Both the position numbers and the translations under genes were made by a program. A DNA stretch of 64,000 bases from Minisyncoccota bacterium (GTDB lineage Bacteria > Patescibacteriota > Minisyncoccia > Phycocordibacterales > DATDWN01), in NCBI GenBank assembly GCA_036517395.1, contig DATDWN010000016.1, forward strand, positions 11,262 to 75,261, given 5' to 3'. Positions 2,942 through 60,770 of the stretch are shown here, piece by piece. The stretch's first letter is position 1, and every line of letters starts with the position of its first letter. Below the pieces are notes generated by a model. The model was not told the DNA's origin. It saw nothing but the letters and a program-made list of their open reading frames with translations, and did not search any database.

Positions 2942-4051
2942 CTAAAATAATCCTTTTTCGTCTTCAACTAAGGGTTTTTCTTCTTCTCTTGGTAGAAAGT
3001 ACAGATTTTGCCTGCCTTGCTTAACACAATCAATCATTCCCTCGTTCACCAACTCTATAAGAGCCATCTGAACATTTTTTGTCCCTGCTGTCTTTTTTAA
3101 CATCTCAACCATCTCTCGTTTGGTTTTACTCCCATCAGGAAGAATGTCCAAAATCTTCTCTTTTGCTTCTTCTTTCTTATTCTCTTGGTCCTCAATCTCT
3201 CCACCATAAGTGAGTTCTGTTTTCACTATTTCGTCTTTAACATGGTCCCGTATAATCGTCTTAAAGGGGTTTATTTCCCTTGTGAGACGGTTTTTTCGCT
3301 GGTATACATCTATCTCTTCTCCTCCTGGTTCGCTCTTCAACATAAGCAGTATTTCCACAGAAGCAGTTTTATCTGTGCTTCCGAAGAGAAATTCTTTTTT
3401 TGGAACCTTGCCCTCAAAGTTGGATGGTTTTCTGAAATGGTCTAAGAAAACTACTGCAACACCCTTATCCTTTAAGATTTTAAGCCTATTAAAGAAGGTT
3501 CTAATTTCATCTGCTTTTTCTTCTTTTATTCCACCTGCAACTGCTCTGAATGTGTCTAGAAATACAACTTTAATATCATAGTAATCAATAACATTTAATA
3601 ACCAGTCAACCCCTCTATCTTCATTGAGGTCTAACTCTGTATCACTATAGACTAAAATCTTTTTGTTAGTTTCACTAAATCCTAATTGTTTTCCTCTTCG
3701 TTGTGCTTCACTTTGCGACATCTCCATGTCGACATAGAGAACATTTCCTGCTTCAGTTTTGAAATCTTTGTTACCAAGAAAATCAATTCCTAATGCGATA
3801 CAACGAGCCATCTCCATCGCAAACCAAGTTTTCTTTTCTCCTGTAACAGAAGCTAGTATGACAAAACCTTCATATGGAATGAGATTTTGGACCAACCATC
3901 TTTGTTTGGAAAATTCTTTATTATCTAGAGTTGTCCAATGCATAGGTTCAAAGAAATGTTTCTCAACTTTTCTTTCTGCTCTTTTATATCCTGCATCCAA
4001 ACCTCTTTCCATAGAAAAATCTTTGAATGTTTGGTTTCTATTTTCCTCCAT
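2942..4051 (-). CDS. RecA-like AAA_25 / RepA-type replication ATPase with C-terminal wHTH
   Basis: Walker-A-like 'SVTGEKKTW', 'YVDMEMSQSEAQRRGKQLGF' and 'VFLDTFR' motifs resemble plasmid/phage RepA-primase-associated ATPases; the C-terminus is wHTH-like. Confidence 0.55.
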   Translation of the reverse strand: MEENRNQTFKDFSMERGLDAGYKRAERKVEKHFFEPMHWTTLDNKEFSKQRWLVQNLIPYEGFVILASVTGEKKTWFAMEMARCIALGIDFLGNKDFKTEAGNVLYVDMEMSQSEAQRRGKQLGFSETNKKILVYSDTELDLNEDRGVDWLLNVIDYYDIKVVFLDTFRAVAGGIKEEKADEIRTFFNRLKILKDKGVAVVFLDHFRKPSNFEGKVPKKEFLFGSTDKTASVEILLMLKSEPGGEEIDVYQRKNRLTREINPFKTIIRDHVKDEIVKTELTYGGEIEDQENKKEEAKEKILDILPDGSKTKREMVEMLKKTAGTKNVQMALIELVNEGMIDCVKQGRQNLYFLPREEEKPLVEDEKGLF

Positions 4052-4345: not shown

Positions 4346-4791
4346 ATTAATATCAAGTGACAAGAAGACAGTAGCTTTTTAGCTAAACTGAATTTGTCCC
4401 TAGTGAGGTGCCGGTAGCTAGTGCGATGGCGACTGGTATAGTCTTGGAGCCTGTGCTGATGCTGGTGGCTATGAGGGGTGTTTTCTAAACTGAAAATGAA
4501 TTAACCAAAGTATATATCTGTCAAAAAATAAGTCAATCCTATTATCCACCACCTTGAATAAAAGTAATTACTCTGACATGATTAAATTACAACTTAATAA
4601 AAAGTTGACCTAACCCCCATAGTTTTCTGTGGGATATGGTCAAAAACCGGTAAGAGACAAAGAACCCATCATATAGGGCTACTCTTACCGGTCCCTGCGG
4701 GAAACTGCAGGTGGAGGACCTCGGTCCTCACCTATGTGGTGGGCTTTTTGTGTCCAAAATACGAATTATTTTTATTATTAAATAAATTATT

Positions 4792-11595: not shown

Positions 11596-11698
11596 TGAGC
11601 TGGATAGGACTCGAACCTATATCATGACCTTAGAATGGTCAGCCCTGGGGAGGGTATAGTTTTCAAGACTACTGTTCTATCCATTGAACTACCAGCCC
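11596..11698 (-). tRNA. atypical tRNA, anticodon UGA (Ser-like) with extra hairpin; ~103 nt
   Basis: Reverse complement folds: acceptor GGGCTGG/CCAGCTC, D-arm GTTC-AATGGATA-GAAC, anticodon arm GTAGT-CTTGAAA-ACTAT, variable hairpin CCCT-CCCC-AGGG, an additional TGACC-ATTCTAA-GGTCA hairpin, T-arm ATAGG-TTCGAGT-CCTAT. Confidence 0.55.
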
Positions 11699-17899: not shown

Positions 17900-20159
17900 G
17901 CCTTTTTTTCTCTTCCTGCAAAATTTCTAGTGCGCGGGGAAGTTCTATTGTGTACACATCATCTTCTTTCAGAGAGCGAAAATCTTTTTGATGTACTATG
18001 TATGGCCCGAAACGTCCAATGTTTGCCGTTATCTTTTCACCGGTATCAGGATGAACCCCCAAGACTTTCGGAAGCGACAAATATTTTAGTGCATCAGCCA
18101 ATGTCACCGTGCTCAAATCTTTCTCTCTCGGTATTGATGCCATTTTTGGCTTAATTGCTTTTTTCGAACCCTTGCCCTTCACCCTCTCTCCAACCTGAAC
18201 ATATGGCCCGTACTTTCCAATATTTACAAAAATCGGCAAACCAGATTCCGGATCAACTCCTACGGGTTCATCCTTTTTAATCTCCTCTCCCGCCATAGTC
18301 AAAGCACCTTCACAGTCAGGATAGTTAGAACAGGAAAGAAACTTGCCGTTTCGAGAAAGTTTTATAATCATATCTTTGCCACATTTTGGACATCGGAATT
18401 CGAGACCGGCGTCACCCAGGTTTGTGATCTTATCAATTTTTTCCTTGGCTTTTACATCGGCCAAAAATGGCTTATAAAAAGTAGCCAATGTTTTTACATA
18501 TTCTTCCTTACCCTCGGCTATGAGGTCGAGTTTATCTTCCATGTCAGCCGTGAAGCTGTCGCTTATGTACTCGGCAAAATTTGCTTCCAAAAAACTAGAT
18601 ACAACATCGCCCGTGTCAGTGGGTACCAGTGCCTTGCTCACTTTCTCCACGTAACCTCTATCCTCCAAAGTTTTTATGGTTGAAGCGTATGTACTAGGCC
18701 TTCCTATGCCTCTTTTCTCAAGTTCCTTAATCAATCCTGCTTCAGAGTATCTTCCTGGTGGTTCGGTCTGCTTTTCTTCTGTATTAATTTTTTTCAAATT
18801 AAGAGCCTCACCGATTTTGACTTTTGGCAATTCAACATCATCTCCTCGCGAAGCCGGATCTCCGAGGAGCCATCCAGCAAATTTAATTTGCGAACCAGTT
18901 ATAGAAAAATCCGGAATATGTGTGTCAAGGACAGTCCTTGACATTGACACATTTGCTGATATTTTGGTTCGAAGTGTCAGAGCATCTTTCATTTGCGATG
19001 ACACAGTTCGTCGCCATATGAGCTTATAAAGTTTTTTCTGTTCATCATTAAAACCGACATGCTCGGCTTCAAAATGTGTTGGGCGTATAGCCTCGTGCGC
19101 CTCCTGTGCGTTTTTGGATTTAGTTGCAAATTTTCGTATTTGTAAATATTCTTTACCAAACTTTTTCTCCACCACTGCCGCAATCTGTGCTATAGCAACA
19201 CCACTCAAGTTTGTCGAGTCCGTGCGCATGTATGTAATATGTCCACACTCATATAATTTCTGTGCAATACCCATTGTTCTTGATGGAGAAAATCCTAGCC
19301 GTGATGATGCTGTCTGTTGAAGTGTGGAGGTTATGAAAGGCGCACGAGGGGATTTTTTCACATCCGTCTCTTTTACATCTTTCACAAACCAGCTGTTTTC
19401 CTTTCCTCCCTTTTCTGCAATTTCCACAATCCGCTCCATTTCTTTTTTATCTGTTGGTTCTTCTTCGCAGACAACAGTAAAAATCTGTTTTCCCCTAGGC
19501 AACGCCTCGGGAGATTTATCTGAGGTATCCGAGGCGTTGCCTAGGGAAGAGATCTCTGCTGAAATAATCCAGAAAGCATGAGACTTAAAAGCCCGGATTT
19601 CTCTCTCGCACTCCATGATAATGCGCAGAGCGGGGGATTGGACGCGTCCGGCAGAGAGGCCATATCGTACTTTTTTCCATATCAAACCCGACAAGTCGTA
19701 TCCCACGAGCCTATCGAGGACTCGCCTTGCTTCCTGCGCTTGTCGCAAATTCTGATCGATATCCCGTGGATTTTTCAAAGCTTCCTCTATCGCTTCCTTA
19801 GTAATTTCCTGATATGAAACCCTCTTCACTTTTTTGTTATGTACTATATGTTCTGTGCCCTTATCATTAATAAGTTCTGCCAAGTGCCATGCTATCGCCT
19901 CACCCTCGCGGTCGGGGTCAGTTGCAAGCAGAACTTCACTGGACTTTTTGGCCAAAGCTTTTATACCATTGACCACTTTCTCCTTGCCTTTGGAAATTTC
20001 ATAGTGCGGCACGAAACCACCCTCGATGTCGATGGCCACTTTGTTCGACTTTGGCAAATCACGAACATGGCCGACAGAAGCAACCACTTCATATCCACTT
20101 CCAAGATATTTTGAAATAGTCTTGGCTTTGGCGGGGGACTCAACGATAAGTAACTTCAT
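17874..20159 (-). CDS. topA: DNA topoisomerase I
   Basis: Toprim 'LLIVESPAKAKTISKYLG', active-site region, C-terminal Zn ribbons 'CPKCGKDM', 'CSNYPDC'. Confidence 0.9.
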   Translation of the reverse strand: MKLLIVESPAKAKTISKYLGSGYEVVASVGHVRDLPKSNKVAIDIEGGFVPHYEISKGKEKVVNGIKALAKKSSEVLLATDPDREGEAIAWHLAELINDKGTEHIVHNKKVKRVSYQEITKEAIEEALKNPRDIDQNLRQAQEARRVLDRLVGYDLSGLIWKKVRYGLSAGRVQSPALRIIMECEREIRAFKSHAFWIISAEISSLGNASDTSDKSPEALPRGKQIFTVVCEEEPTDKKEMERIVEIAEKGGKENSWFVKDVKETDVKKSPRAPFITSTLQQTASSRLGFSPSRTMGIAQKLYECGHITYMRTDSTNLSGVAIAQIAAVVEKKFGKEYLQIRKFATKSKNAQEAHEAIRPTHFEAEHVGFNDEQKKLYKLIWRRTVSSQMKDALTLRTKISANVSMSRTVLDTHIPDFSITGSQIKFAGWLLGDPASRGDDVELPKVKIGEALNLKKINTEEKQTEPPGRYSEAGLIKELEKRGIGRPSTYASTIKTLEDRGYVEKVSKALVPTDTGDVVSSFLEANFAEYISDSFTADMEDKLDLIAEGKEEYVKTLATFYKPFLADVKAKEKIDKITNLGDAGLEFRCPKCGKDMIIKLSRNGKFLSCSNYPDCEGALTMAGEEIKKDEPVGVDPESGLPIFVNIGKYGPYVQVGERVKGKGSKKAIKPKMASIPREKDLSTVTLADALKYLSLPKVLGVHPDTGEKITANIGRFGPYIVHQKDFRSLKEDDVYTIELPRALEILQEEKKRRGFKKKSK

Positions 20160-23900: not shown

Positions 23901-24962
23901 ATGAACTTCTGGCATCAACTCAAACGCCCTATCATGGTTCTCGCGCCCATGGCTGACGTAACGGATGCGGCTTTTCGTCGCATCATTGCAAAATATGGTA
24001 AGCCGGACGTCATGTGGACAGAATTTGTTTCGGCTGACGGTCTGTTTATGGGAGGATATGAACATCTAATAAAAGATCTGGCTTTCACAGAAGCCGAGAG
24101 ACCTATCGTGGCCCAATTTTTCACAAGTAAACCGGAGATGATGGAGAAAGCGGCGGAGCTGGCGTGTGATCTAGGTTTTGATGGGATAGATATAAACATG
24201 GGATGTCCCGACAAATCAGTGGAAAAGCAGGGAAGTGGTTCAGCTCATATAAAAGATTATAAAAATGCTCAAAAAATTATTCGCGCGGCCATGAGAGGTG
24301 CGGAGAAAGCATTCCAAAGGTCCGACCTTAAAAACCCAAACTCCCAAGGTCGGACCTTGGGTCCCATACCCGTTAGTGTCAAAACGCGTATTGGTTACAA
24401 TAAAAATGAACTTGATACATGGCTACCGGCACTTCTTGAGACCAATCCCGCGGTGATAACAATCCATGCACGAACCAGAAAAGAAATGTCCTCTGTTCCT
24501 GCTCGTTGGGAGCATGTGAAGGAAGCTGTGGAGATAAGAAATAAATTTTTTGATTCTAGTGGCAAGAAAAGTCAGACGCTGATTTTTGGCAATGGAGATG
24601 TCGTAGGCACTGATGACGCTAGGAGAAAGTGTGAAGAAACCGGATGTGACGGTGTCATGCTCGGTCGCGCGATTTTCGGAAACCCGTGGCTTTTTAACAA
24701 ACCACTCCAGATGTCAAGGACAGTCCTTGACACGAAAGATAAGGAGGTCTCGATTCCAGAAAGGTTGAGAATAATGGTTGAGCACACGAAACTTTTTGAA
24801 GAAATATTGCCATACAAAAGTTTTGCAATAATGAAAAAACACTACAAAGCCTACGTGACGGGTTGGCCTGATGCAAAAGAACTAAGATTGAAACTGATGG
24901 AAGCCAAAGATGCTGGGGAAGTGGAGGCTGTTGTGGGAGAGTATCTAGCTAGTCTGACTTGA
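23901..24962 (+). CDS. dus: tRNA-dihydrouridine synthase
   Basis: 'MVLAPMADVTDAAFRRI', 'GFDGIDINMGCP', TIM-barrel Dus motifs; contains two palindromic in-frame segments. Confidence 0.85.
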   Translation: MNFWHQLKRPIMVLAPMADVTDAAFRRIIAKYGKPDVMWTEFVSADGLFMGGYEHLIKDLAFTEAERPIVAQFFTSKPEMMEKAAELACDLGFDGIDINMGCPDKSVEKQGSGSAHIKDYKNAQKIIRAAMRGAEKAFQRSDLKNPNSQGRTLGPIPVSVKTRIGYNKNELDTWLPALLETNPAVITIHARTRKEMSSVPARWEHVKEAVEIRNKFFDSSGKKSQTLIFGNGDVVGTDDARRKCEETGCDGVMLGRAIFGNPWLFNKPLQMSRTVLDTKDKEVSIPERLRIMVEHTKLFEEILPYKSFAIMKKHYKAYVTGWPDAKELRLKLMEAKDAGEVEAVVGEYLASLT

Positions 24963-26462: not shown

Positions 26463-27629
26463 ATGAAACAACGGCAAAAGTTTAACAAATACAGACCATC
26501 CATATCATTTATTTTTGTTATGTGTGTTTTTATTGTCTCTATTATTTTATATAAAGTTGTTAAAGTTCCAAGGCAACTAGAATTTGTTAGTTTTGCAACA
26601 ACTCCATATCCAGTTCAATACTCGGATGAGCATATTACAGAAAACGCCATAGCTACGGCGCCAAAGTTTCGACAGATAACATTTGCTAATAACGTAAATC
26701 AGTTTGCAAATATCATAAGTTCCATAAATAAAAACAGTGATGTCATAAAATCCGAAGGTCCAGAAAACGGCACATGGTTGTGGACTCCGATTCTTTCTAT
26801 TACTCCACAATACAGAAAAACGATAATATCTAACGCAAAAAACAGGGGAATAAAAAACATTTATATTTCTATTGATTCTTATTTGGATATATATGTTATG
26901 CCTGATGGTTCAGAGAAAATTGCTAAGAAAAAAGCTTTTGATGCTGTGCTTGCGGCGTTTATACAACTTGCAAATAAAAACGGCATAAGTGTTGACGCCG
27001 AGGCTGGTTGGCGAAACTGGGCCGAGGATGGTAATACATACAAAGCTTTTGCTACCGTTAACTATGCTATTGAGTTCAATAAAAACCACCAAACCAAACT
27101 GCGAGGTTTTCAGTATGATGTCGAGCCGTATCTGCTAGATAGGTACAAAAAAGAAAAGGCAGATGTCCTTGTAAGTTTTATAAAACTTGTTGACCAGACG
27201 GTCTCTCAGCTTTCGGATAGCGATTTGCAGTTCATGGTAGTTATTCCAGAGTTTTATGATAAATCAAGTGGCTCACCAAAATTTGTCTACAAAAATGTCT
27301 CAGGGTTTGCCATTGATCACTTGCTTTCAGTGCTAGATCAGAGAGAGGGAAGTAAAATAATTATCATGTCGTATCGCAATTGGAGTCTTGGCGAGGACAG
27401 CTCGGTGGAAATTTCTCAAGACGAGATTAGGACGGCTGATTCTCACCAGACTAAAATAGTAGTGGCTCAGGAAACGGGCGATGTTATGCCATCATACGTC
27501 ACATTTCACAACACTTCTCGAGCTTATCTCAAAAGCCAGACCACCAATATCCAAAAAGCATTTGCAAAAAATAAAAGTTTTGGCGGCTTGGCTGTGCACT
27601 ACATAAATGCGTTCATGGAGCTGAAATGA
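26463..27629 (+). CDS. membrane-anchored hypothetical protein
   Basis: 388-aa ORF with an N-terminal TM helix; no motif recognised. Confidence 0.45.
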   Translation: MKQRQKFNKYRPSISFIFVMCVFIVSIILYKVVKVPRQLEFVSFATTPYPVQYSDEHITENAIATAPKFRQITFANNVNQFANIISSINKNSDVIKSEGPENGTWLWTPILSITPQYRKTIISNAKNRGIKNIYISIDSYLDIYVMPDGSEKIAKKKAFDAVLAAFIQLANKNGISVDAEAGWRNWAEDGNTYKAFATVNYAIEFNKNHQTKLRGFQYDVEPYLLDRYKKEKADVLVSFIKLVDQTVSQLSDSDLQFMVVIPEFYDKSSGSPKFVYKNVSGFAIDHLLSVLDQREGSKIIIMSYRNWSLGEDSSVEISQDEIRTADSHQTKIVVAQETGDVMPSYVTFHNTSRAYLKSQTTNIQKAFAKNKSFGGLAVHYINAFMELK

Positions 27630-27682
27630 TTAATGGAATTGAGTCAGGTGGAATTTACAAATAGGCAGATAGGGCGGTTCCT

Positions 27683-27714
27683 CTTGATACCCACTTAACT
27701 TACGCGGTCGCGAG
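27683..27714. repeat. 32-bp hairpin, left partner of inverted pair flanking the PaaX-like gene
   Basis: CACTTAA-CTTACGCGGTCGCGAGAT-TTAAGTG is the reverse complement of 28329-28360 (1-2 mismatches). Confidence 0.7.
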
Positions 27715-27743
27715 ATTTAAGTGGAGGTGATAATATTTCATAT

Positions 27744-28319
27744 ATGGGGAATATCGAAATTAAATCTCGCAAAAGAAAGTCAAGAAAGGATATTCAGAAA
27801 GCTATTCTCACTTCTGTCAAAATGGCGGGATTGTTAAGTATTGCGCTTGTCGCTCCAAATGCTGTTCAATGCTTAAAATCATTTGGTCTGCTTTCAGGAA
27901 GGAGACAAGAAGAAATCATGAATAGATCTAGAGAAAATCTTATTAGAGATGGTCTTTTGAAATATGAAAAAGGATTTCTCGAATTGACCAATAAAGGCCA
28001 AACTCGTCTAGACTTTTTGGAAATGAATGATTGGAAAATGAATAGACCTCGCAAATGGGATGGTAGGTGGCGGATGCTTATATTTGATATACCGGAAAGA
28101 AGAAAAGGCCTCAGGGATAAAATTCGAAACACTCTTTTAAGTATGGGATTTCTCAAACTTCAAAATAGTGCTTGGATATACCCTTATGATTGCGAAGATT
28201 TGATCAATTTACTGAAAGCGGATTTCAAAGTCGGCAAAGACCTTCTGTATCTTATTGTTGATTCCATAGAGAACGACAAGAGTTTTCGAAAATCGTTTGC
28301 TCTACCATTAGAAAAATAA
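27744..28319 (+). CDS. PaaX-like protein: N-terminal wHTH + C-terminal Cas2-like domain
   Basis: C-terminal 'WRMLIFDIPERRKGLRDKIRNTLLSMGFLKLQNSAWIY' resembles the Cas2 / PaaX central-domain fold (compare Cas2 'LVLVTYDV...RVQNSVF'); the N-terminus is wHTH-like. Confidence 0.55.
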   Translation: MGNIEIKSRKRKSRKDIQKAILTSVKMAGLLSIALVAPNAVQCLKSFGLLSGRRQEEIMNRSRENLIRDGLLKYEKGFLELTNKGQTRLDFLEMNDWKMNRPRKWDGRWRMLIFDIPERRKGLRDKIRNTLLSMGFLKLQNSAWIYPYDCEDLINLLKADFKVGKDLLYLIVDSIENDKSFRKSFALPLEK

Positions 28320-28328
28320 ATTCCAATT

Positions 28329-28360
28329 ACACTTAAATCTCGCGACCGCTAAAGTTAAGT
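28329..28360. repeat. 32-bp hairpin, right partner of the inverted pair
   Basis: CACTTAA-ATCTCGCGACCGCTAAAG-TTAAGTG; embedded in a longer palindrome CCAATTACACTTAA...TTAAGTGTAATTGG. Confidence 0.7.
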
Positions 28361-28452
28361 GTAATTGGTTATATTGATTATATACTTTATTTAAGAAAAT
28401 AAATGGAAAATAAAGTCTAAATGTGTTATAAATTAGAGCGTTGATCGAATAT

Positions 28453-28526
28453 TGCCCGATCGTCTAATGGTAGGACACTAGGTTTTGGTCCTAGGTATCG
28501 TGGTTCGAGTCCATGTCGGGCAGCCA
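28453..28526 (+). tRNA. tRNA-Gln (anticodon UUG)
   Basis: U1-A72 acceptor TGCCCGA/TCGGGCA, D-arm GTCT-AATGGTA-GGAC, anticodon arm CTAGG-TTTTGGT-CCTAG, T-arm CGTGG-TTCGAGT-CCATG, CCA encoded. Confidence 0.75.
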
Positions 28527-28636
28527 AAGTTTAGAGAGTTCACAACTCAGACATAATACAAATTATAAGTGATATACTTTAGGTATTATTCACTAACATA
28601 ATTACTACTATAGATGTATAGATATAGTAGAATGAT

Positions 28637-29029
28637 ATGAAAACATACGAGTGGTACCAAACTCTATCAAAGCCGATGTGGGCTCCGCCAACGTGGCTGT
28701 TTGCTCCAGTATGGACAGCTCTTTATACAATAATCGCAATATCATATGGATATGTCGGTTATCTATTTTTTGCCAAGAAGATTTCTTTTATCATAGTTTT
28801 GCCATTTGTTCTCAATCTAATATTCAACTTCGCTTTTACTCCGATACAATTTGGTTTGCAAAATAATTTTCTTGCGGCGCTTGATATTCTTCTAGTTCTT
28901 GGAACTTTGGTGTGGGCGCTGGTTGCTGTCTATCCACATGTAAAATGGGTTACATATGTAAACATTCCATATTTAGTTTGGGTTTTGTTTGCTACTGTAC
29001 TTCAGCTCACCATAACTTTTACCAATTAA
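28637..29029 (+). CDS. TspO/MBR-like tryptophan-rich membrane protein
   Basis: 'WYQTLSKPMWAPPTWLFAPVWTALY' matches the TspO signature; 4-5 TM. Confidence 0.6.
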   Translation: MKTYEWYQTLSKPMWAPPTWLFAPVWTALYTIIAISYGYVGYLFFAKKISFIIVLPFVLNLIFNFAFTPIQFGLQNNFLAALDILLVLGTLVWALVAVYPHVKWVTYVNIPYLVWVLFATVLQLTITFTN

Positions 29030-38716: not shown

Positions 38717-38804
38717 AATTTACAATTATCAATTTACAATTTCCAATCAATTCTCAATGTTCCAATGATTCAATTTGAAAATTGAGAACTGAAAATTGAA
38801 AATT
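38717..38804. repeat. ~88-bp AT-rich repeat (family D) abutting the apbE ATG
   Basis: ...CAATTCTCAATGTTCCAATGATTCAATTTGAAAATTGAGAACTGAAAATTGAAAATT-ATG; ~95% identical to 41342-41430. Confidence 0.75.
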
Positions 38805-39671
38805 ATGCAATTCGATGCTATTGGTACTCACTGGCAGATAGATATAAATGAAGAGGTGGAGGAGTCAAAAGTCCATAAAGTCAGAAAGTCTATAAAGGAG
38901 AGAATAGATATTTTTGACAAAGACTACTCGCGTTTTCGTGATGACTCGCTGGTGACGAAGATGTCACATGAGTCCGGTGGTTTTGTCTTGCCAAGTGATG
39001 CGGATAAAATGGTTTCTCTTTATAAAAAAATGTACGATATCACGGGTGGGCTTGTCACGCCTCTCATAGGTCAAGCCATATCAGACGCTGGATATGATGC
39101 AAAATATTCTCTCTCACCAAAACCTATGACCAAAGCACCCAAGTGGGAGGATGTTTTAATTTGGCATAACCCCAAACTTATGCTTTCAAAACCTGTCCTT
39201 CTTGATTTTGGTGCTTGTGGCAAGGGTTATCTAGTAGATATAGTTTCTGAAATATTAGAAGGTATTGGAATCAAATCCTACTGCGTTGATGCTGGGGGTG
39301 ACATGAGATGTAGAAGCGCAAAAGTTAAAAGTGAAAAGTTAAAAGTAGGGTTGGAGAATCCAAATAATAAAGAAGAGGTGATTGGTGTCATAAATCTAGG
39401 GAATCAAAGCTTATGTGGTTCCAGCGGCAACAGGAGGACGTGGGCAAATTTTCACCACATCATAAACCCAGAAACACTTACTTCACCTCGTGAAATTTCA
39501 GCTGTCTGGGTAGTGGCAGACGAAACTATCAAAGCCGACATCCTAACCACAGGACTTTTCTTTGTTTCTCCCGAAACTCTCTTAAAACATTTTGATTTTC
39601 AGTATCTTATTCTATATCCCGACTTTTCCATCAAAAAATCCGATGGATTTGATGCGAAAATATTTACGTAA
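38805..39671 (+). CDS. apbE: FAD:protein FMN transferase (ApbE family)
   Basis: 'FDKDYSRFRDDS', 'LDFGACGKGYLVD', 'DAGGDM' ApbE motifs; ATG at 38805 (the track start at 38796 is TTG). Confidence 0.75.
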   Translation: MQFDAIGTHWQIDINEEVEESKVHKVRKSIKERIDIFDKDYSRFRDDSLVTKMSHESGGFVLPSDADKMVSLYKKMYDITGGLVTPLIGQAISDAGYDAKYSLSPKPMTKAPKWEDVLIWHNPKLMLSKPVLLDFGACGKGYLVDIVSEILEGIGIKSYCVDAGGDMRCRSAKVKSEKLKVGLENPNNKEEVIGVINLGNQSLCGSSGNRRTWANFHHIINPETLTSPREISAVWVVADETIKADILTTGLFFVSPETLLKHFDFQYLILYPDFSIKKSDGFDAKIFT

Positions 39672-41341: not shown

Positions 41342-41430
41342 GAATTTTCAATTATCAATTTACAATTTTCAATCAATTCTCAATGTTCCAATGATTCAAT
41401 TTGAAAATTGAGAACTGAAAATTGAAAATT
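41342..41430. repeat. ~88-bp AT-rich repeat (family D) abutting the msrA ATG
   Basis: Near-identical to 38717-38804. Confidence 0.75.
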
Positions 41431-41433
41431 ATC

Positions 41434-41982
41434 ATGCATACTAAAATAGAAACAGCAATCTTGGGTGGAGGTTGCTTCTGGTGTACGGAGGCAGTTTTTC
41501 AGATGTTGAAGAGCGTGAAATCTGTCGAGCCGGGTTATGCAGGTGGAAATGTATCAAACCCAATATATGAACAAGTTTGCGGGGGAAACACTGGTCATGT
41601 TGAGTGCATAAAAATAGAGTTTAACCCAGAAGAAATTTCATATCGAGATTTATTGACCGTCTTTTTTGGAAGCCATGATCCAACAACACTAAATATGCAG
41701 GGAAATGATATTGGCACTCAATACCGCTCTGTTATTTTTTATACAACGCCAAAGCAGAAAGAAACAGCCGAAAGTTTTATACAAGAATTAAATGACTCCA
41801 GCCCAGACGGTCGACCTATTGTCACAGCGGTTGAACCGCTGGAGAGTTTTTACGTTGCTGAAAACTATCACAAGGATTATTATGAGAGAAATAAAGAAGC
41901 CCCCTATTGCCAGGTCATTATCAATCCAAAATTAGAAAAAGTACAAAAACAATTTGCAAGTCTTTTAAAAACTAATAAATAG
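41434..41982 (+). CDS. msrA: peptide methionine sulfoxide reductase A
   Basis: 'GGGCFWCTEAVF' active site; ATG at 41434. Confidence 0.9.
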   Translation: MHTKIETAILGGGCFWCTEAVFQMLKSVKSVEPGYAGGNVSNPIYEQVCGGNTGHVECIKIEFNPEEISYRDLLTVFFGSHDPTTLNMQGNDIGTQYRSVIFYTTPKQKETAESFIQELNDSSPDGRPIVTAVEPLESFYVAENYHKDYYERNKEAPYCQVIINPKLEKVQKQFASLLKTNK

Positions 41983-42030
41983 AATAAAATCATTCCGACA
42001 TTCTCAAGAATGTCGGAATGATTTACTAAA

Positions 42031-51622: not shown

Positions 51623-52909
51623 GTGAAATCTTTTTCTTTTGATATACATTCTGAACTTCCAAATTCTCTCGGACGAGTTGGTACAATACACACTCCACAT
51701 GGTGACATACAAACACCGGCATTTGTCGCAGTTGGAACAAAAGGCACGGTAAAAAGTTTGACGCCGGAACAGGTCGCAGATACTGGCACACAAGTCATAA
51801 TCGCAAATACATATCATTTATATTTAGAGCCCGGAGACGAAAAGATAAAAAATATTGGAGGGTTGCACAAAGCGATGAACTGGTCTGATCCTCTTATGAC
51901 CGACTCTGGCGGCTTCCAAGTTTTTTCTCTAGGTGTCGCATATGGCAAAAAGATTAGCAAAGTTTCAAAAAAAGATGAACTAATACTATCCAAGCCTCTC
52001 CCTATGTCCGACATAGGGAGATTTGCGGAAACAAGACTTCAACAAGATGAGGCAGTACCAAAGATTGCTCGAATTGATTCCAATGGGGTAATGTTCCGCG
52101 ATCATATATCGGGCAGCGCTCACTATTTTACTCCGGAAAAATCGATAGAGATTCAGCACAATCTCGGCGCAGATATTATTTTTGCCTTTGACGAATGCAC
52201 CTCACCTCATGAGTCGCTTCATTATCAGAAAGAAGCGCTTGAGAGAACTCACCGCTGGGCTCGACGTTCTCTTGAACATCATTCCGACATTCTCAAGAAT
52301 GTCGGAATGAATGGCCCTGCGATTTTTGGCATTGTGCAGGGCGGGCGAGATGAAACCTTGCGTAAAGAAAGTGCAAAATATATGGCAGATTTAAGGGCCG
52401 GAGGTCCTGAACGAAGCGAAGGATTCGACGGTTTCGGAATAGGCGGATCATTTGAAAAAGAAGATATGAGCAAGGCAGTAGAATGGTGCAATCAGATTTT
52501 GCCAAGAGAGAAGCCAAGGCATCTGCTTGGTATCGGCGAGCCAACCGATTTATTTATGGCGGTTGAGTTCGGGTGTGATTTGTTTGACTGTGTTTCACCC
52601 ACTCGTATCGCTCGAAACGGCGGAGTTTATACAAAAGAAGGAAGAGTCAATTTACTGAATCAAGAATTTCGAGAAGATTCAAAACCTCTCGACCAAGGTT
52701 GTCTCTGCTACACATGCAAAAACTTTTCGTGCGCTTATGTTGCACATCTCTTTCATGCAAAAGAAATTTTGGCTTATACGCTGGCATCAATACACAACCT
52801 TTATTTTATAACTCACATGGTGGATGGTATGCGCGAGACTATGCAAAGCGGGGATTTTGAAAGCTACAAAAAAGATTTTTTAAGTAAATACTACAGGACT
52901 AATTTGTGA
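51623..52909 (+). CDS. tgt: queuine tRNA-ribosyltransferase
   Basis: 'LMTDSGGFQVFSL', 'DCVSPTRIARNGG', Zn site 'CLCYTCKNF...H'; carries a 30-bp palindromic segment at 52290-52319. Confidence 0.9.
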   Translation: MKSFSFDIHSELPNSLGRVGTIHTPHGDIQTPAFVAVGTKGTVKSLTPEQVADTGTQVIIANTYHLYLEPGDEKIKNIGGLHKAMNWSDPLMTDSGGFQVFSLGVAYGKKISKVSKKDELILSKPLPMSDIGRFAETRLQQDEAVPKIARIDSNGVMFRDHISGSAHYFTPEKSIEIQHNLGADIIFAFDECTSPHESLHYQKEALERTHRWARRSLEHHSDILKNVGMNGPAIFGIVQGGRDETLRKESAKYMADLRAGGPERSEGFDGFGIGGSFEKEDMSKAVEWCNQILPREKPRHLLGIGEPTDLFMAVEFGCDLFDCVSPTRIARNGGVYTKEGRVNLLNQEFREDSKPLDQGCLCYTCKNFSCAYVAHLFHAKEILAYTLASIHNLYFITHMVDGMRETMQSGDFESYKKDFLSKYYRTNL

Positions 52910-58270: not shown

Positions 58271-59668
58271 ATGAATAATCGAAATATTAAAAAAGTAATA
58301 TCTAAATTCCCGGATTCTCCTGGGGTGTATATTTTCCTTGGCTCGCCGAAACGTAGTGGAGGCGGCAAGTCCAAAAGTGAAATTCTTTACATAGGCAAAG
58401 CCACATCCCTCCGTGACCGAGTTAGAACTTACATGTCAAGGACAGTCCTTGACACTCGAAGTCCACTCATAGCTAAGATGCTGGAGGAGTTTGAAGATAT
58501 CGAATACATAAAAACAGATTCTGTTTTGGAAGCACTTGTTTTGGAAGCCAATCTCATAAAAAAACACCAGCCGGAAGCAAATATAAAAGAAAAAGATAAT
58601 AAAAGTTTTAACTTTGTTGTGATTACCAAAGAAGATTTTCCTCGTGTTTTAGTTATCCGCGGTCGTGAACTGCTGCAATCGCGCATTATGTCAAGGACGC
58701 CCCTTGCCAAAAATTCAAAAATGGCAAAGGGCGTCTTTGACATTAAAAATCAGTTCGGTCCATTTCCAAACGGCGGACAGCTGAAGGAAGCACTGAAAAT
58801 AATTCGCAAGATGTTTCCGTATCGGGATAAGTGTAATTCTGCGGAAGTCCGACTTCCGCAGAAAACGTATTCAGGGAAGCGACCGAGCGGGAACGATGGG
58901 AGTACTGAGGCCAACAGGCCGAATGTAGCCTGTTTTAATCGTCAGATAGGTTTGTGTCCAGGAGTTTGTACAGGAGAAATTACAAAAGAGGATTATCAGA
59001 AACAAATCCAAAATATTATTTTGTTTTTTCGGGGTAATAAAAAGCGATTGCTGAAAAACCTTGAGAAACAAATGCGAGGTTTCGCAAAAAATCGAGAGTT
59101 TGAGAAAGCCGGCGAAGCTAAAAAAACAATTTTTCTTCTAAAACATATTCAGGATATATCGCTTATAAAAGAAGATTGCAAAGGTTCGACCTTAAAGAAT
59201 GGTGCCCAAGGTCGAACCTTGGATTCAGAGACATTCCGAATCGAATCTTATGATGTCGCACACATGTCTGGACAAAATGTTGTTGGGGTTATGATTGTTG
59301 TCGAGGATGGTGAAGTGAAGAAGTCTGATTATAGGAAGTTCAAAATAAAAAACAATCCAAGTGTAAACGATACTAAAGCCTTGACAGAAGTACTGTCGAG
59401 AAGGTTGGCACATATAGAATGGCGATTTCCTGATTTGATTGTTGTCGATGGAGGGACGGCGCAAAAGAGAGTGATGGAAAAGATTTTGCGGGAGAATAAA
59501 GTGAATATTCCCGTTGTTTCTGTTGTCAAAGATGAGAGACATAAACCGAAGAATATACTAGGTGACAGACAGTGGTTAAAATATGAGAGAGAAATAATTC
59601 TAGCAAACAGCGAATCACATAGATTTGCTATTGGATATCATAGAAAGCTCAGAGGGAAGTTTGGATAA
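58271..59668 (+). CDS. uvrC: excinuclease ABC subunit C (short form, lacks C-terminal HhH)
   Basis: GIY-YIG 'GVYIF...ILYIGKATSLRDRV', UvrBC-binding 'LLKNLEKQMRGFAKNREFEKAGEAKK', RNaseH-like endonuclease domain. ATG at 58271 preferred over the track start. Confidence 0.85.
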   Translation: MNNRNIKKVISKFPDSPGVYIFLGSPKRSGGGKSKSEILYIGKATSLRDRVRTYMSRTVLDTRSPLIAKMLEEFEDIEYIKTDSVLEALVLEANLIKKHQPEANIKEKDNKSFNFVVITKEDFPRVLVIRGRELLQSRIMSRTPLAKNSKMAKGVFDIKNQFGPFPNGGQLKEALKIIRKMFPYRDKCNSAEVRLPQKTYSGKRPSGNDGSTEANRPNVACFNRQIGLCPGVCTGEITKEDYQKQIQNIILFFRGNKKRLLKNLEKQMRGFAKNREFEKAGEAKKTIFLLKHIQDISLIKEDCKGSTLKNGAQGRTLDSETFRIESYDVAHMSGQNVVGVMIVVEDGEVKKSDYRKFKIKNNPSVNDTKALTEVLSRRLAHIEWRFPDLIVVDGGTAQKRVMEKILRENKVNIPVVSVVKDERHKPKNILGDRQWLKYEREIILANSESHRFAIGYHRKLRGKFG

Positions 59669-59771
59669 TTTCAAATTTCAAAATCCAAATTTCCAATCAG
59701 TATCAAAGAATCAAATGTCAAAGTTTTGGATTTCGATATTTGGATTTGGTTTGACATTGGAAGTTTAGGTT

Positions 59772-60770
59772 TTGATATTATACAATATATCTATGCCAAC
59801 TCTTTCTCCATCACTTCACATAGGCGTACTTCGTGGGGGACCGTCGTCGGAGTATGATGTCTCACTAAAAAGTGGTGCTAATGTCCTACGGCATCTTTCG
59901 GAAACTCACAGGCCGCTGGATATTTTTATTTCTCGTGATGGCAAATGGCATATAGCGGGTGTGGAGAGATCACCGGAAAGAATTTTGCAAAATGTCGATG
60001 TTGTTTTCAATGCTTTGCACGGTGCCTATGGTGAGGATGGTGGAGTACAGGAAGTTCTCGGCTACCTCGGCGTTCCGTATACCGGCTCCGGGCGGTATGA
60101 GTCCGCTATCGCCATGAATAAATGGATGACAAAGGAAAGGGCGACGGCGGCCGGAATAAAAACACCAGTTTTTGCCATTGTGAGAGAGACTGACAATTTG
60201 GCGCAAAAAGCCAAAGAGATTTTCAACTCCATACCGCATCCGCTCATAGTTAAACCAGCATGTGGAGGCTCGTCCCTAGGGCTTTATAAAGTGTCCTCCT
60301 ATAGCGAACTCTTGTCCGCTCTGGAAAGTGTCTTGTCTGAGCATGGTTCGGCGATCGTGGAGGAGTGTATTATTGGTAAAGAAGCTACATGTGGTGTTAT
60401 AAATAATTTTCGTGAGCGAGATGTGTATGCACTACCTCCTATCGAGATTATTCCGCCAAAAGGCAAACTGTTTGACTATGATTCAAAATATAATGGAGAG
60501 AGTAGGGAAATCTGCCCTGGGAATTTTAGTCAATTGGAGAAAAAAGAAATAGAAAGATTATCGGCTCTCATTCACCAAACTCTGGGCTTATCGCATTATT
60601 CTCGATCAGATTTTATTGTTTCACCACGTCGTGGGATTTATTTTCTGGAGGTCAATACTCTTCCCAGATTAACTCCAGAGTCTCTTCTACCAAAGTCTCT
60701 CAAAGCTATTGGTTCTAGTGTTCAGGAGTTTTTGCATCATGTTATCGGCCTTGCATTAAATAAAAAATAG
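59772..60770 (+). CDS. ddl: D-alanine--D-alanine ligase
   Basis: 'GVLRGGPSSEYDVSLKSG', ATP-grasp 'VKPACGGSSLGL', 'EVNTLP'. Confidence 0.85.
   Translation: MILYNISMPTLSPSLHIGVLRGGPSSEYDVSLKSGANVLRHLSETHRPLDIFISRDGKWHIAGVERSPERILQNVDVVFNALHGAYGEDGGVQEVLGYLGVPYTGSGRYESAIAMNKWMTKERATAAGIKTPVFAIVRETDNLAQKAKEIFNSIPHPLIVKPACGGSSLGLYKVSSYSELLSALESVLSEHGSAIVEECIIGKEATCGVINNFRERDVYALPPIEIIPPKGKLFDYDSKYNGESREICPGNFSQLEKKEIERLSALIHQTLGLSHYSRSDFIVSPRRGIYFLEVNTLPRLTPESLLPKSLKAIGSSVQEFLHHVIGLALNKK

What the first reader, a model, noticed from the sequence alone, without database searches (positions are those of the whole stretch)
27683..28360. Single wHTH + Cas2-like (PaaX-like) gene bracketed by 32-bp mutually inverted hairpins: mini mobile cassette or self-regulating module next to tRNA-Gln
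The 191-aa protein combines a wHTH with a Cas2-fold domain (WRMLIFDIPERRKGLRDKIRNTLLSMGFLKLQNSAWIY, compare Cas2 LVLVTYDV...QNSVF). The gene is flanked at 27683-27714 and 28329-28360 by near-perfect reverse-complement 32-mers, each itself a hairpin (CACTTAA-18 nt-TTAAGTG). The unit (~680 bp) lies 90 bp upstream of tRNA-Gln. This could be a minimal TIR-bounded mobile unit, operator sites for autoregulation, or 5'/3' UTR pairing that creates an RNase III-type stem. No CRISPR array or other cas genes are present.
Basis: partly seen in the sequence, partly recalled or inferred. Interest (0 to 1): 0.75.

Follow-up and report, generated by a model that had tools for sequence, protein, structure and literature searches.

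The report
Mini-PaaX repressor flanked by its binding sites
A small DNA-binding protein of an ultra-small (CPR/Paceibacteria) bacterium sits between two copies of the 40-bp palindrome that it most likely binds, and comparison of about 200 related loci suggests that both its winged-helix and its Cas2-like domain read that palindrome, a pattern conserved across the whole protein family.

Summary
Gene 27744-28319 encodes a 191-aa wHTH + Cas2-like (Pfam PaaX_M) protein. It is bracketed by 32-mers at 27692-27723 and 28330-28361 that are 30/32 complementary, and each is itself a palindrome.

This is not a one-off. Of 78 homologous Paceibacteria loci, 67 carry a 40-bp palindrome next to the gene: (C/T)ATACAC-N9-GC-TATA/GGTC-GC-N9-GTGTAT(G). 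Control windows 1 kb away have one in about 3% of cases. The upstream copy usually ends exactly on the ATG and carries a TATAAT-like box.

Two co-variation signals argue that the protein binds these sites:
- Half-site divergence tracks only wHTH helix 3 (Mantel r=0.40, p=0.0005).
- Residue 141 of the Cas2-like domain tracks the central tetranucleotide (D with TATA; N/K/H/Q/R with G..C; p about 1e-9, 9 co-transitions). The window has N141 with GGTC.

The geometry matches the E. coli PaaX operator (6-N27-6). The best reading is an autorepressor on a leaderless promoter plus a second site of unresolved role.

Synteny (dnaX ... tRNA-Gln) is conserved, so the mobile-cassette idea is not supported, and neither is RNase III pairing. 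In other genomes 73% of such palindromes lie away from the gene, in intergenic DNA, so a REP/RAYT-like reading stays open.

The parts
27688..27727 (.). Upstream 40-bp family site. Half-sites are CCCACTTAA / TTAAGTGG and the centre is CGC-GGTC-GCG. Proposed autoregulatory operator covering the -35/spacer region of the gene's promoter.
   Evidence: repeat and palindrome. (same position class in 44/78 homologous loci versus 3/64 control windows). (co-variation with the encoded protein).
27728..27736 (+). Extended -10-like element TGaTAATAT directly after the palindrome. Its last base is 7 nt before A27744, so the mRNA would be leaderless or nearly so (inferred, no TSS data).
   Evidence: Read from the sequence. 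In the family the equivalent hexamer T77 A77 T48 A57 A57 T71 sits at -12..-7 of the ATG inside the right arm. The orthologue L002 has TGaTAAAGT at the same offset. The generic promoter scan did not list it.
27744..28319 (+). Gene for a 191-aa mini-PaaX protein. It has a basic N-terminal arm, a wHTH (recognition helix about residues 53-68, wing 72-81) and a Cas2-like ferredoxin-fold domain (residues 105-185). It has no PaaX_C effector domain. Key residues are N141 in LQNSAW and the invariant D115.
28326..28365 (.). Downstream 40-bp family site. The hairpin extends to 28323-28368 and the 32-mer is 28330-28361. Half-sites are TTACACTTAA / TTAAGTGTAA and the centre is CGC-GACC-GCT. It starts 4-7 nt after the stop codon. 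Proposed second binding site; role unresolved (loop partner, roadblock/insulator or 3' hairpin).
   Evidence: A downstream site is present in 52/78 homologous loci versus 1/64 controls.
28366..28374 (+). TGgTTATAT, an extended -10-like element at the same +5 offset from the 32-mer as the one after the upstream site. It could be a second regulated promoter reading toward tRNA-Gln. This is a lead only.
   Evidence: A 54-nt direct repeat of 70% identity covers site plus right flank (D1). Sequence reading. L002 has TGaTATAGA after its downstream site. L007 does not.
28453..28526 (+). tRNA-Gln(UUG), a conserved downstream neighbour of this orthologue group. It is preceded by its own likely promoter, TGTGTTATAAAT at about 28424-28435. 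It is not shown to be part of the system.
   Evidence: (tRNA-Gln also lies downstream in L002 and L007).

Best explanation
The gene encodes a truncated PaaX-type DNA-binding protein (wHTH + Cas2-like dimerisation domain, no effector domain). As a dimer it recognises a 40-bp palindrome along its whole length. The two wHTH recognition helices read the outer half-sites (here ACACTTAA). The Cas2-like dimer sits on the dyad, and residue 141 reads the central tetranucleotide (here N141 with C-GGTC-G).

The upstream copy overlaps the gene's own, probably leaderless, promoter, so the protein represses its own synthesis. The downstream copy, a few nt after the stop codon, is a second cognate site. It most likely acts with the first, either as a DNA loop or as protein roadblocks that insulate the gene from read-through on both sides.

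What is shown: conservation of the sites, their positions, and both co-variation signals. What is inferred: binding itself, repression, the leaderless start, and any role of the downstream site.

In related genomes the same kind of site also lies in other intergenic regions. The family therefore probably acts at tens of sites per genome, and the promoter-embedded copy would tune protein level to site occupancy.
For: 1. Family-wide conservation. Of 78 loci with full flanks, 44 have an upstream site, 52 a downstream site and 67 at least one. Control windows 1 kb away have 3/64 and 1/64. Positions C18 and G23 of the 40-mer are invariant.

2. Fixed register with the start codon. In 24 of 44 upstream sites the 40-mer ends on the G of the ATG. 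A TATAAT-like hexamer sits at -12..-7 in the right arm only, and this is where the upstream palindromes break symmetry.

3. Half-site divergence correlates with divergence of residues 48-68, the predicted recognition helix (Mantel r=0.40, p=0.0005; partial r=0.40 controlling for the Cas2-like domain). It does not correlate with the N-terminus (-0.02), helix 2 (0.04), the wing (0.13) or the Cas2-like domain (0.06).

4. Residue 141 tracks the centre. D goes with TATA at 44 of 48 sites. N/K/H/R/Q go with GGTC/GATC/GGCC/GATA/ACAT, with TATA at 0 of 28 sites (Fisher 7e-10). Nine of 11 residue-class changes fall on the same tree branch as a centre change (p 5e-9). As an independent check, 16 of 16 metagenome genes flanked by TATA-centre sites have D141, against a 67% background. 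Asp opposite an A-T pair and Asn/Lys/His/Arg/Gln opposite G fits ordinary major-groove readout (established chemistry; inference here).

5. The E. coli PaaX operator is TGATTC-N27-GAATCA (PMC9493321). That is the same 6-N27/28-6 geometry, and PaaX 8A39 is the best structural match.

6. Paralogues in one genome carry different site classes (L009, L012, L024, L033; also L004 and L034; and the window versus L201).
Against: - No binding, TSS or expression data exist. Everything is comparative.
- The downstream site often lies between convergent genes, where no promoter is expected. Simple operator logic therefore does not explain it.
- Of 83 site-first hits, 61 are not next to a family gene. They sit closer to 3' ends (median about 40 nt) than to the next start (about 85 nt), beside unrelated housekeeping genes such as uvrC, purD, ddl, folD and SpoU. 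This looks more like punctuation or REP-like elements than a themed regulon.
- Palindromy is maintained by compensatory changes: 38 observed against 3.9 expected. It also extends 4-10 bp into locus-specific flanks. Sequence-specific binding alone does not require either.
- The Cas2-like domain is far more conserved than a dimerisation module needs, including D115 at the Cas2 catalytic position (80/80).
- The AlphaFold2 model is only moderate (pLDDT 72, pTM 0.43), and domain arrangement and dimer were not modelled.
Confidence: 0.7

Rival explanations
1. REP/RAYT-like system. The palindromes are a replicating or homogenising family of extragenic palindromic elements. The flanked wHTH-Cas2-like protein is their domesticated processing enzyme (a nuclease using D115) that copies, cuts or maintains them. 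In this reading autoregulation is secondary.
For: - The gene is flanked by its own palindrome class, each paralogue has its own class, and the gene is vertically inherited. These are the hallmarks listed for RAYTs (PMC3337134).
- 73% of sites found by motif are extragenic and away from the gene, enriched after stop codons and between convergent genes.
- 95 pairs of sites at least 36/38 identical lie in unrelated flanks.
- Orthologous intergenic regions exist with and without a site.
- Compensatory maintenance and locus-specific extension of palindromy.
- D115 is invariant at the Cas2 catalytic position.
Against: - There is no HUH/Y1 motif. The protein is a wHTH regulator fold.
- Copy number is low, about one site per 20-30 kb.
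- In this genome 84 kb hold only the four gene-flanking sites.
- The uvrC-ddl intergenic region keeps a site in two lineages while its class changes. That looks like in-place co-evolution of a functional site, not insertion.
- Quasi-palindrome correction by template switching could produce compensatory changes and extension without any enzyme (established mutational mechanism; inference here).
Confidence: 0.13
2. The palindromes work mainly as RNA hairpins: transcription terminators or 3'-end stabilisers of this gene and of the upstream gene. Their similarity would reflect shared ancestry rather than protein binding.
For: - The downstream hairpin is very stable on both strands (-19 and -20.5 kcal/mol, z about -5).
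- Sites lie 0-40 nt after stop codons and between convergent genes.
- A-rich sequence precedes the downstream hairpin of the window and T-rich sequence follows it.
Against: - No T-tract enrichment follows the sites: 10-16% have at least 6 T in 8 nt, the same as the mirrored control.
- The terminator scan finds none here.
- Mismatches show no G-U bias (upstream 23 GT versus 15 AC; downstream 18 versus 27).
- Upstream copies facing a divergent neighbour cannot terminate anything.
- Two independent protein-site co-variations are unexplained by an RNA-only role.
Confidence: 0.08
3. A TIR-bounded mini mobile cassette (palindrome-gene-palindrome) that inserted upstream of tRNA-Gln.
For: - Near-identical inverted 32-mers bracket a single gene next to a tRNA.
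- The family is multi-copy per genome.
Against: - Synteny dnaX ... gene ... tRNA-Gln is kept in orthologues at 62-68% identity.
- The relative orientation of the two copies is not conserved.
- No transposase or recombinase is present and no abutting target duplication.
- The same palindromes occur singly elsewhere.
- Absent from viral contigs.
Confidence: 0.03
4. The 5' and 3' copies pair in the mRNA to form a long duplex for RNase III processing or circularisation.
For: 30/32 complementarity between the two copies in this window.
Against: - In other loci the copies are as often direct as inverted.
- The upstream copy usually overlaps the -10 box and start codon, so it is likely untranscribed.
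- Each copy folds on itself more readily than it would pair across 600 nt.
Confidence: 0.02

Closest known systems
PaaX, the phenylacetyl-CoA-responsive repressor of E. coli and Pseudomonas (PDB 8A39; related 3L09, 3KFW)
   Same: - N-terminal wHTH followed by the Cas2-like PaaX_M domain (PF20803, E 1e-21), and the best structural match.
- Operator made of inverted hexamers about 27 bp apart (TGATTC-N27-GAATCA; PMC9493321), versus ATACAC-N26/28-GTGTAT here.
- Autorepression by promoter occlusion is documented for PaaX at Px (same review).
   Different: - 191 aa instead of about 305, with no C-terminal effector-binding domain.
- TIGR02277 score of 31.5 against a cut-off of 264.55.
- No paa genes nearby.
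- The centre of the site is conserved and co-varies with a residue of the Cas2-like domain. The one PaaX source read here, a review, gives the operator as TGATTC(N27)GAATCA and says no structure of PaaX bound to its operator had been solved; it describes nothing comparable.
- Sites flank the gene on both sides.
- Several orthogonal paralogues occur per genome.
Cas2 (CRISPR adaptation protein; e.g. SSO8090 3EXC, S. pyogenes Cas2 5ZYF)
   Same: - Ferredoxin-like fold.
- The beta1 ...FD motif and the Q-x-S-V-W/F beta2 motif align, and D115 falls on the Cas2 catalytic Asp.
- Cas2 dimers also lie along duplex DNA in Cas1-Cas2 complexes (own knowledge).
   Different: - Fused to a wHTH.
- No CRISPR array in the window.
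- TIGR01573 score of 23.2, just under the 24.5 cut-off.
- Here the domain appears to read bases at a palindrome dyad.
REP/REPIN elements and their RAYT genes
   Same: - A short gene flanked by the palindromic repeats it is associated with.
- One repeat class per paralogue, with a single, vertically inherited gene copy.
- Repeats dispersed in extragenic DNA, often after 3' ends (PMC3337134).
   Different: - RAYTs are HUH/Y1 single-strand transposases. This protein is a wHTH-Cas2-like regulator fold.
- Copy numbers are tens rather than hundreds.
- No dispersed copies were seen in 84 kb of this genome.
Autoregulated repressors with two operators that loop DNA (lac, gal, deo), and roadblock terminators such as mTERF or Reb1
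   Same: - Identical binding sites upstream and several hundred bp downstream of the promoter.
- Symmetric sites that would block polymerases from either side.
   Different: Purely an analogy from general knowledge. No oligomerisation or roadblock data exist for this family.

Membership tests
PaaX family (TIGR02277 / Pfam PaaX + PaaX_M + PaaX_C) | Central Cas2-like domain PaaX_M (PF20803) | tested here: met
   E 1.2e-21, 77 bits against a cut-off of 24, residues 103-174.
PaaX family (TIGR02277 / Pfam PaaX + PaaX_M + PaaX_C) | N-terminal PaaX-type wHTH recognisable by sequence | tested here: inconclusive
   No Pfam hit to an N-terminal PaaX domain at E<=1. However, the model shows helix-helix-helix-wing at residues 15-81, and Foldseek aligns 181 columns to PaaX 8A39.
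PaaX family (TIGR02277 / Pfam PaaX + PaaX_M + PaaX_C) | C-terminal helical effector (phenylacetyl-CoA) domain and full-length equivalog score | tested here: not met
   The protein ends at residue 191 with no C-terminal domain hit. TIGR02277 scores 31.5 bits against a cut-off of 264.55.
PaaX family (TIGR02277 / Pfam PaaX + PaaX_M + PaaX_C) | Operator of inverted hexamers separated by about 27 bp | tested here: met
   Family consensus is ATACAC-N26/28-GTGTAT. In the window it is CACTTAA-N18-TTAAGTG inside a 40-bp site. The PaaX operator is taken from PMC9493321. Binding itself was not tested.
Cas2 (CRISPR-associated) | Ferredoxin-like Cas2 fold with Asp at the end of beta1 | tested here: met
   Foldseek hits to 5ZYF, 3EXC, 8IA4 and 2IVY. 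phmmer aligns FDI with YDV of 3EXC. D115 is invariant in 80/80.
Cas2 (CRISPR-associated) | Passes the Cas2 family threshold and is linked to cas1 and a CRISPR array | tested here: not met
   TIGR01573 scores 23.2 against a cut-off of 24.5. There is no CRISPR-like array in 64 kb. cas1 was not searched explicitly.
REP/RAYT | HUH and Tyr motifs of an IS200-like Y1 transposase | tested here: not met
   The only family hit is PaaX_M, and the fold is wHTH + Cas2-like.
REP/RAYT | Gene flanked by its own palindromic repeat class, which is also dispersed extragenically | tested here: inconclusive
   Flanking and class specificity are met. Dispersal is seen in other genomes (61/83 sites) but not in 84 kb of this genome. 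Replicative spread was not tested.
TIR-bounded transposon / MITE | Terminal inverted repeats with target-site duplication and a variable insertion site | tested here: not met
   Orientation is not conserved, there is no abutting duplication, and synteny is conserved.
Intrinsic (Rho-independent) terminator | G+C-rich hairpin followed by a U-tract | tested here: not met
   0 terminator-like sites in 27300-28800. No T-tract enrichment after 40 downstream sites and 32 other sites.

The most novel reading that the evidence does not exclude
A Cas2-fold domain acts here as a base-reading DNA module at the dyad of a 40-bp palindrome. The wHTH-Cas2-like proteins and their palindromes form a chromosomal 'protein plus dispersed palindrome' system in CPR bacteria, analogous to RAYT/REPIN but built on a different protein fold. 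The protein, possibly using the invariant Cas2-position Asp115, would maintain, process or spread the palindromes, or use them as genome punctuation. If true, this would be a free-living relative of Cas2 with sequence-specific DNA recognition, which bears on where the CRISPR adaptation module came from.
Probability: 0.15. Interest if true: 0.85.

Novelty: new variant of a known kind. Interest (0 to 1): 0.62.

Why it matters
Gene regulation in CPR/Patescibacteria is almost unstudied. This is a large family: 368 representatives at 50% identity with E<=1e-30, and several paralogues per tiny genome.

The analysis gives directly testable predictions:
- A defined 40-bp site for each protein.
- A one-residue 'code' (D141 with TATA; N/K/H/Q/R with G..C).
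- A leaderless, self-repressed promoter.

It also suggests that the Cas2-like domain of PaaX-type regulators contacts DNA specifically rather than only dimerising. That matters for understanding both PaaX, whose operator complex is unsolved (PMC9493321), and the ancestry of Cas2. Sets of orthogonal protein/site pairs of this kind could also be useful as synthetic-biology parts. Four searches of the held paper library for this family, its domain names or the central palindrome motif returned no title or abstract that describes this system; the listed papers were not opened.

Tried and rejected
- Rfam at gathering threshold: nothing at the hairpins.
- Generic promoter/terminator scan: no terminator, and the proposed extended -10 was not listed.
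- Relative orientation of the two copies as a conserved feature: rejected.
- G-U bias test for an RNA hairpin: negative.
- T-tract test for intrinsic terminators: negative.
- Downstream site as operator of the next gene: rejected as a general rule, because the right-hand neighbour is often convergent.
- Functional theme among genes next to non-flanking sites: none. They include uvrC, purD, ddl, folD, a SpoU methylase, an NTP transferase and a TrmB-like protein.
- A second gene family bracketed by the same sites (L003 ORF216, L149 ORF165): the proteins are unrelated, so this was dropped.
- Viral contigs: neither the motif nor the protein is present.
- PDB sequence search: only weak hits (3KFW at 0.033 with the profile; 3EXC at 0.45 with the single sequence).
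- Literature searches for PaaX + CPR, PaaX_M/PF20803/'Cas2-like domain', and GCTATAGC: nothing relevant.
- PADLOC: only weak Cas2 core matches.
Full report
**1. The observation**

The window is from a Candidatus Paceibacterota (CPR) genome. The protein is 100% identical to NCBI locus VJC13_03280.

The ORF 27744-28319 (+) encodes 191 aa. The two 32-mers are at 27692-27723 and 28330-28361, which is 9 nt and 1 nt away from the coordinates given. They are 30/32 reverse-complementary. They are the only two matches in 64 kb at up to 3 mismatches, with 0 expected from shuffles.

Each 32-mer is itself an imperfect palindrome. The downstream one extends to a 46-nt hairpin at 28323-28368. As RNA that hairpin folds at about -20 kcal/mol on either strand (z about -5), whereas the upstream one is weak. 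tRNA-Gln is at 28453-28526. No Rfam family matches the hairpins.

**2. The protein**

Pfam gives PaaX_M, the 'PaaX central Cas2-like domain', at E 1.2e-21. It finds no N-terminal PaaX domain and no PaaX_C. NCBIfam scores for PaaX (31.5 against 264.55) and Cas2 (23.2 against 24.5) are below their cut-offs.

An AlphaFold2 model built from 79 homologues has pLDDT 72 overall and 80-86 in the C-terminal domain. It shows a long basic N-terminal helix, a wHTH (helices 33-46 and 53-68, wing 72-81) and a beta-alpha-beta-beta-alpha-beta domain at 109-184. Foldseek ranks E. coli PaaX (8A39), Rv0674 (3KFW) and 3L09 first, then many Cas2 structures.

phmmer aligns RMLIFDIPE...LQNSAW with the Cas2 SSO8090 sequence LLVVYDVSD...IQRSAF. 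This places D115 on the Cas2 catalytic Asp, and D115 is invariant in 80 of 80 relatives.

**3. The family**

The protein belongs to a large family of roughly 190-aa proteins:
- 1439 hits in the 90%-identity clusters.
- 368 representatives at 50% identity with E<=1e-30.
- 559 confirmed loci in species-representative genomes. The 80 best are essentially all Parcubacteria/Paceibacteria lineages, often with several copies per genome. One assembly (DATDXL) has four loci: L009, L012, L024 and L033.
- A paralogue at 66% identity (P0040) is named from the same NCBI assembly series as the window protein.

**4. The palindromes are a family feature**

I scanned the flanks of the 80 genome loci. The recurring element is a 40-bp palindrome: (C/T)ATACAC-N9-(G)C-TATA or GGTC-G(C)-N9-GTGTAT(G). 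C18 and G23 are invariant.

Of 78 loci with full flanks:
- 44 have an upstream site, 52 a downstream site, 29 both, and 67 at least one.
- Same-sized control windows 1 kb away have 3/64 and 1/64.
- The downstream site begins a median of about 17 nt after the stop codon.
- In 24 of 44 loci the upstream site ends exactly on the G of the ATG, and in 4 more on the A.

In upstream sites the right inner arm reads T77 A77 T48 A57 A57 T71 at -12..-7 of the ATG. The mirrored left arm does not, and this is exactly where upstream palindromes lose symmetry. By standard sigma-70 geometry this is a -10 box for a leaderless mRNA, which is an inference.

In the window the site ends 17 nt before the ATG. An extended -10-like TGaTAATAT (27728-27736) follows it, 7 nt before A27744. 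The orthologue L002 has the same layout.

**5. Does the protein bind these sites?**

Two independent co-variation tests say yes.

(a) Half-sites and the recognition helix. Across 52 loci, divergence at half-site positions 2-12 correlates with divergence of residues 48-68, the predicted recognition helix (Mantel r=0.40, p=0.0005). This holds after controlling for the Cas2-like domain. No correlation is seen with the N-terminus (-0.02), helix 2 (0.04), the wing (0.13) or the Cas2-like domain (0.06). For example, GTACCA half-sites go with an 'RSC' helix, and GAAAAT, AACAAC and GGAATC half-sites go with divergent helix N-termini.

(b) The centre and residue 141. The central tetranucleotide co-varies with residue 141, the x of LQxSVW in the Cas2-like domain.
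- D goes with TATA at 44 of 48 sites.
- N/K/H/R/Q go with GGTC/GATC/GGCC/GATA/ACAT, and none of their 28 sites has TATA (Fisher 7e-10).
- On a neighbour-joining tree built without that column, 9 of 11 residue-class changes fall on the same branch as a centre-class change (hypergeometric 5e-9).
- As an independent test, 16 of 16 readable family genes flanked by TATA-centre sites in metagenome contigs have D141, against 67% D overall.
- The window has N141 with GGTC/GACC, which fits.

The conserved domain thus matches the conserved centre, and the variable helix matches the variable half-sites.

The geometry equals that of the E. coli PaaX operator, TGATTC-N27-GAATCA (PMC9493321). That review also notes that PaaX represses its own promoter by steric hindrance, and that no PaaX-operator structure exists.

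**6. What the two copies are not**

- The 'mutually inverted' orientation is not conserved. Inverted is better in 5 loci, direct in 6, and they are equal in 13.
- Orthologues L002 and L007 (62-68% identity) keep dnaX upstream and tRNA-Gln downstream. No target duplication abuts the unit. Neither the motif nor the protein is on IMG/VR contigs. A mobile cassette is therefore not supported.
- The sites are not canonical terminators. The scan finds none here and no T-tract enrichment follows them.
- There is no G-U bias among arm mismatches, which argues against selection on a sense-strand RNA hairpin.
- The right-hand neighbour of the downstream site is often a convergent gene. The site is therefore not, in general, the operator of the next promoter.
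- In the window and in L002 an extended -10-like element follows the downstream site at the same offset as after the upstream site. This does not hold in L007. It is a lead that tRNA-Gln transcription might be affected, but tRNA-Gln has its own conserved promoter-like box closer in.

**7. The wider picture**

Of 83 sites with enough flank, only 22 adjoin a family gene.

The other 61 sites are almost all intergenic:
- 37 lie between tandem genes, 16 between convergent genes and 8 between divergent genes (these totals include eight sites that an ORF call overlaps).
- They are typically 0-40 nt after a stop codon and 70-100 nt before the next start.
- Their neighbours are unrelated housekeeping genes.

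Other features of the dispersed sites:
- Density is about one site per 20-30 kb.
- Near-identical 38-mers occur in unrelated flanks, in 95 pairs.
- Palindromy is kept by compensatory changes between the two copies of a locus (38 observed, 3.9 expected, maximum 12 in 2000 permutations).
- Palindromy often extends 4-10 bp into locus-specific flanks.
- The orthologous uvrC-ddl spacer carries a TATA-class site in L136, a GATC-class site in L106/L169, and none in this window at 59653-59820.

In this genome, the 64-kb window plus 20 kb around the P0040 paralogue hold only the four gene-flanking sites.

**8. Interpretation**

The well-supported core is a cognate pair: a dimeric mini-PaaX protein and a 40-bp palindrome read by both of its domains. 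One copy is embedded in the gene's own promoter, which implies negative autoregulation.

The role of the second copy, and of dispersed copies in other genomes, is not settled. I favour a second operator or roadblock that insulates the gene, with dispersed copies acting as binding sites that 'punctuate' intergenic DNA. The promoter-embedded copy would then titrate protein level against site number.

The arrangement also mirrors RAYT/REPIN systems: the gene is flanked by its own repeat class, there is one class per paralogue, and inheritance is vertical (PMC3337134). It does so with an unrelated protein fold and low copy numbers. The strong conservation of the Cas2-like domain and of D115 keeps an enzymatic role open. 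Quasi-palindrome correction by template switching is a neutral alternative for the compensatory and extension signals.

**9. Novelty**

The searches of the held paper library listed no paper that, by its title or abstract, describes this CPR family, its palindromes or a DNA-reading role for the PaaX_M/Cas2-like domain; the listed papers were not opened. I rate it a new variant of a known kind, the PaaX-type autorepressor and operator. There is a minority chance of something more unusual.

Noticed in passing
window 18923-18943, 24712-24732, 58434-58454: A perfect 21-nt palindrome, TGTCAAGGACAGTCCTTGACA, occurs three times in 64 kb in unrelated flanks. It could be the operator or site of another factor.
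   Followed up: partly
window 41986-42025 and 52275-52314; also L103 1973 and L005 1054: There is a second family of roughly 40-nt palindromes with the centre TTCTCAAGAA (ATCATTCCGACATTCTCAAGAATGTCGGAATGA). Palindromes with a similar centre occur in other Paceibacteria loci, which suggests another protein/site pair.
   Followed up: partly
window 25301, 43264, 49431: TATCCGCACACTAA occurs three times. Each copy lies directly after a -10-like box and is followed by similar sequence (CTTTGCTCTCGTT-like). This could be a repeated 5' leader or the start of a small RNA.
   Followed up: no
window 38717-38830 and 41343-41450: A segment of roughly 110 nt is duplicated 2.6 kb apart. It is AT-rich and contains a 46-nt imperfect palindrome.
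   Followed up: no
window 4607-4729 (+) and 11596-11698 (-): Rfam finds a LOOT RNA (71.8 bits) at the first position. At the second it finds a 103-nt tRNA match that ARAGORN did not call, possibly an intron-containing or long-arm tRNA.
   Followed up: no
L007 3751-3989: Sequence resembling the tRNA-Gln 5' end (TTGGGAGACGCC) lies about 165 nt upstream of the tRNA-Gln that ARAGORN calls at 3916-3989. The tRNA may be interrupted or duplicated in this orthologous locus.
   Followed up: no
L084 1799/1962, L132 4595/4662, L162 5393/5494, L176 1211/1292, L149 5507/5664: Family palindromes of two different classes often sit 70-160 nt apart in the same intergenic region. This suggests combinatorial use of sites by different paralogues.
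   Followed up: no
L013 about 940-1640: A very long palindrome (about 126 nt, score 63) overlaps the 3' end of the family gene in this contig. It is possibly an assembly fold-back artefact.
   Followed up: no
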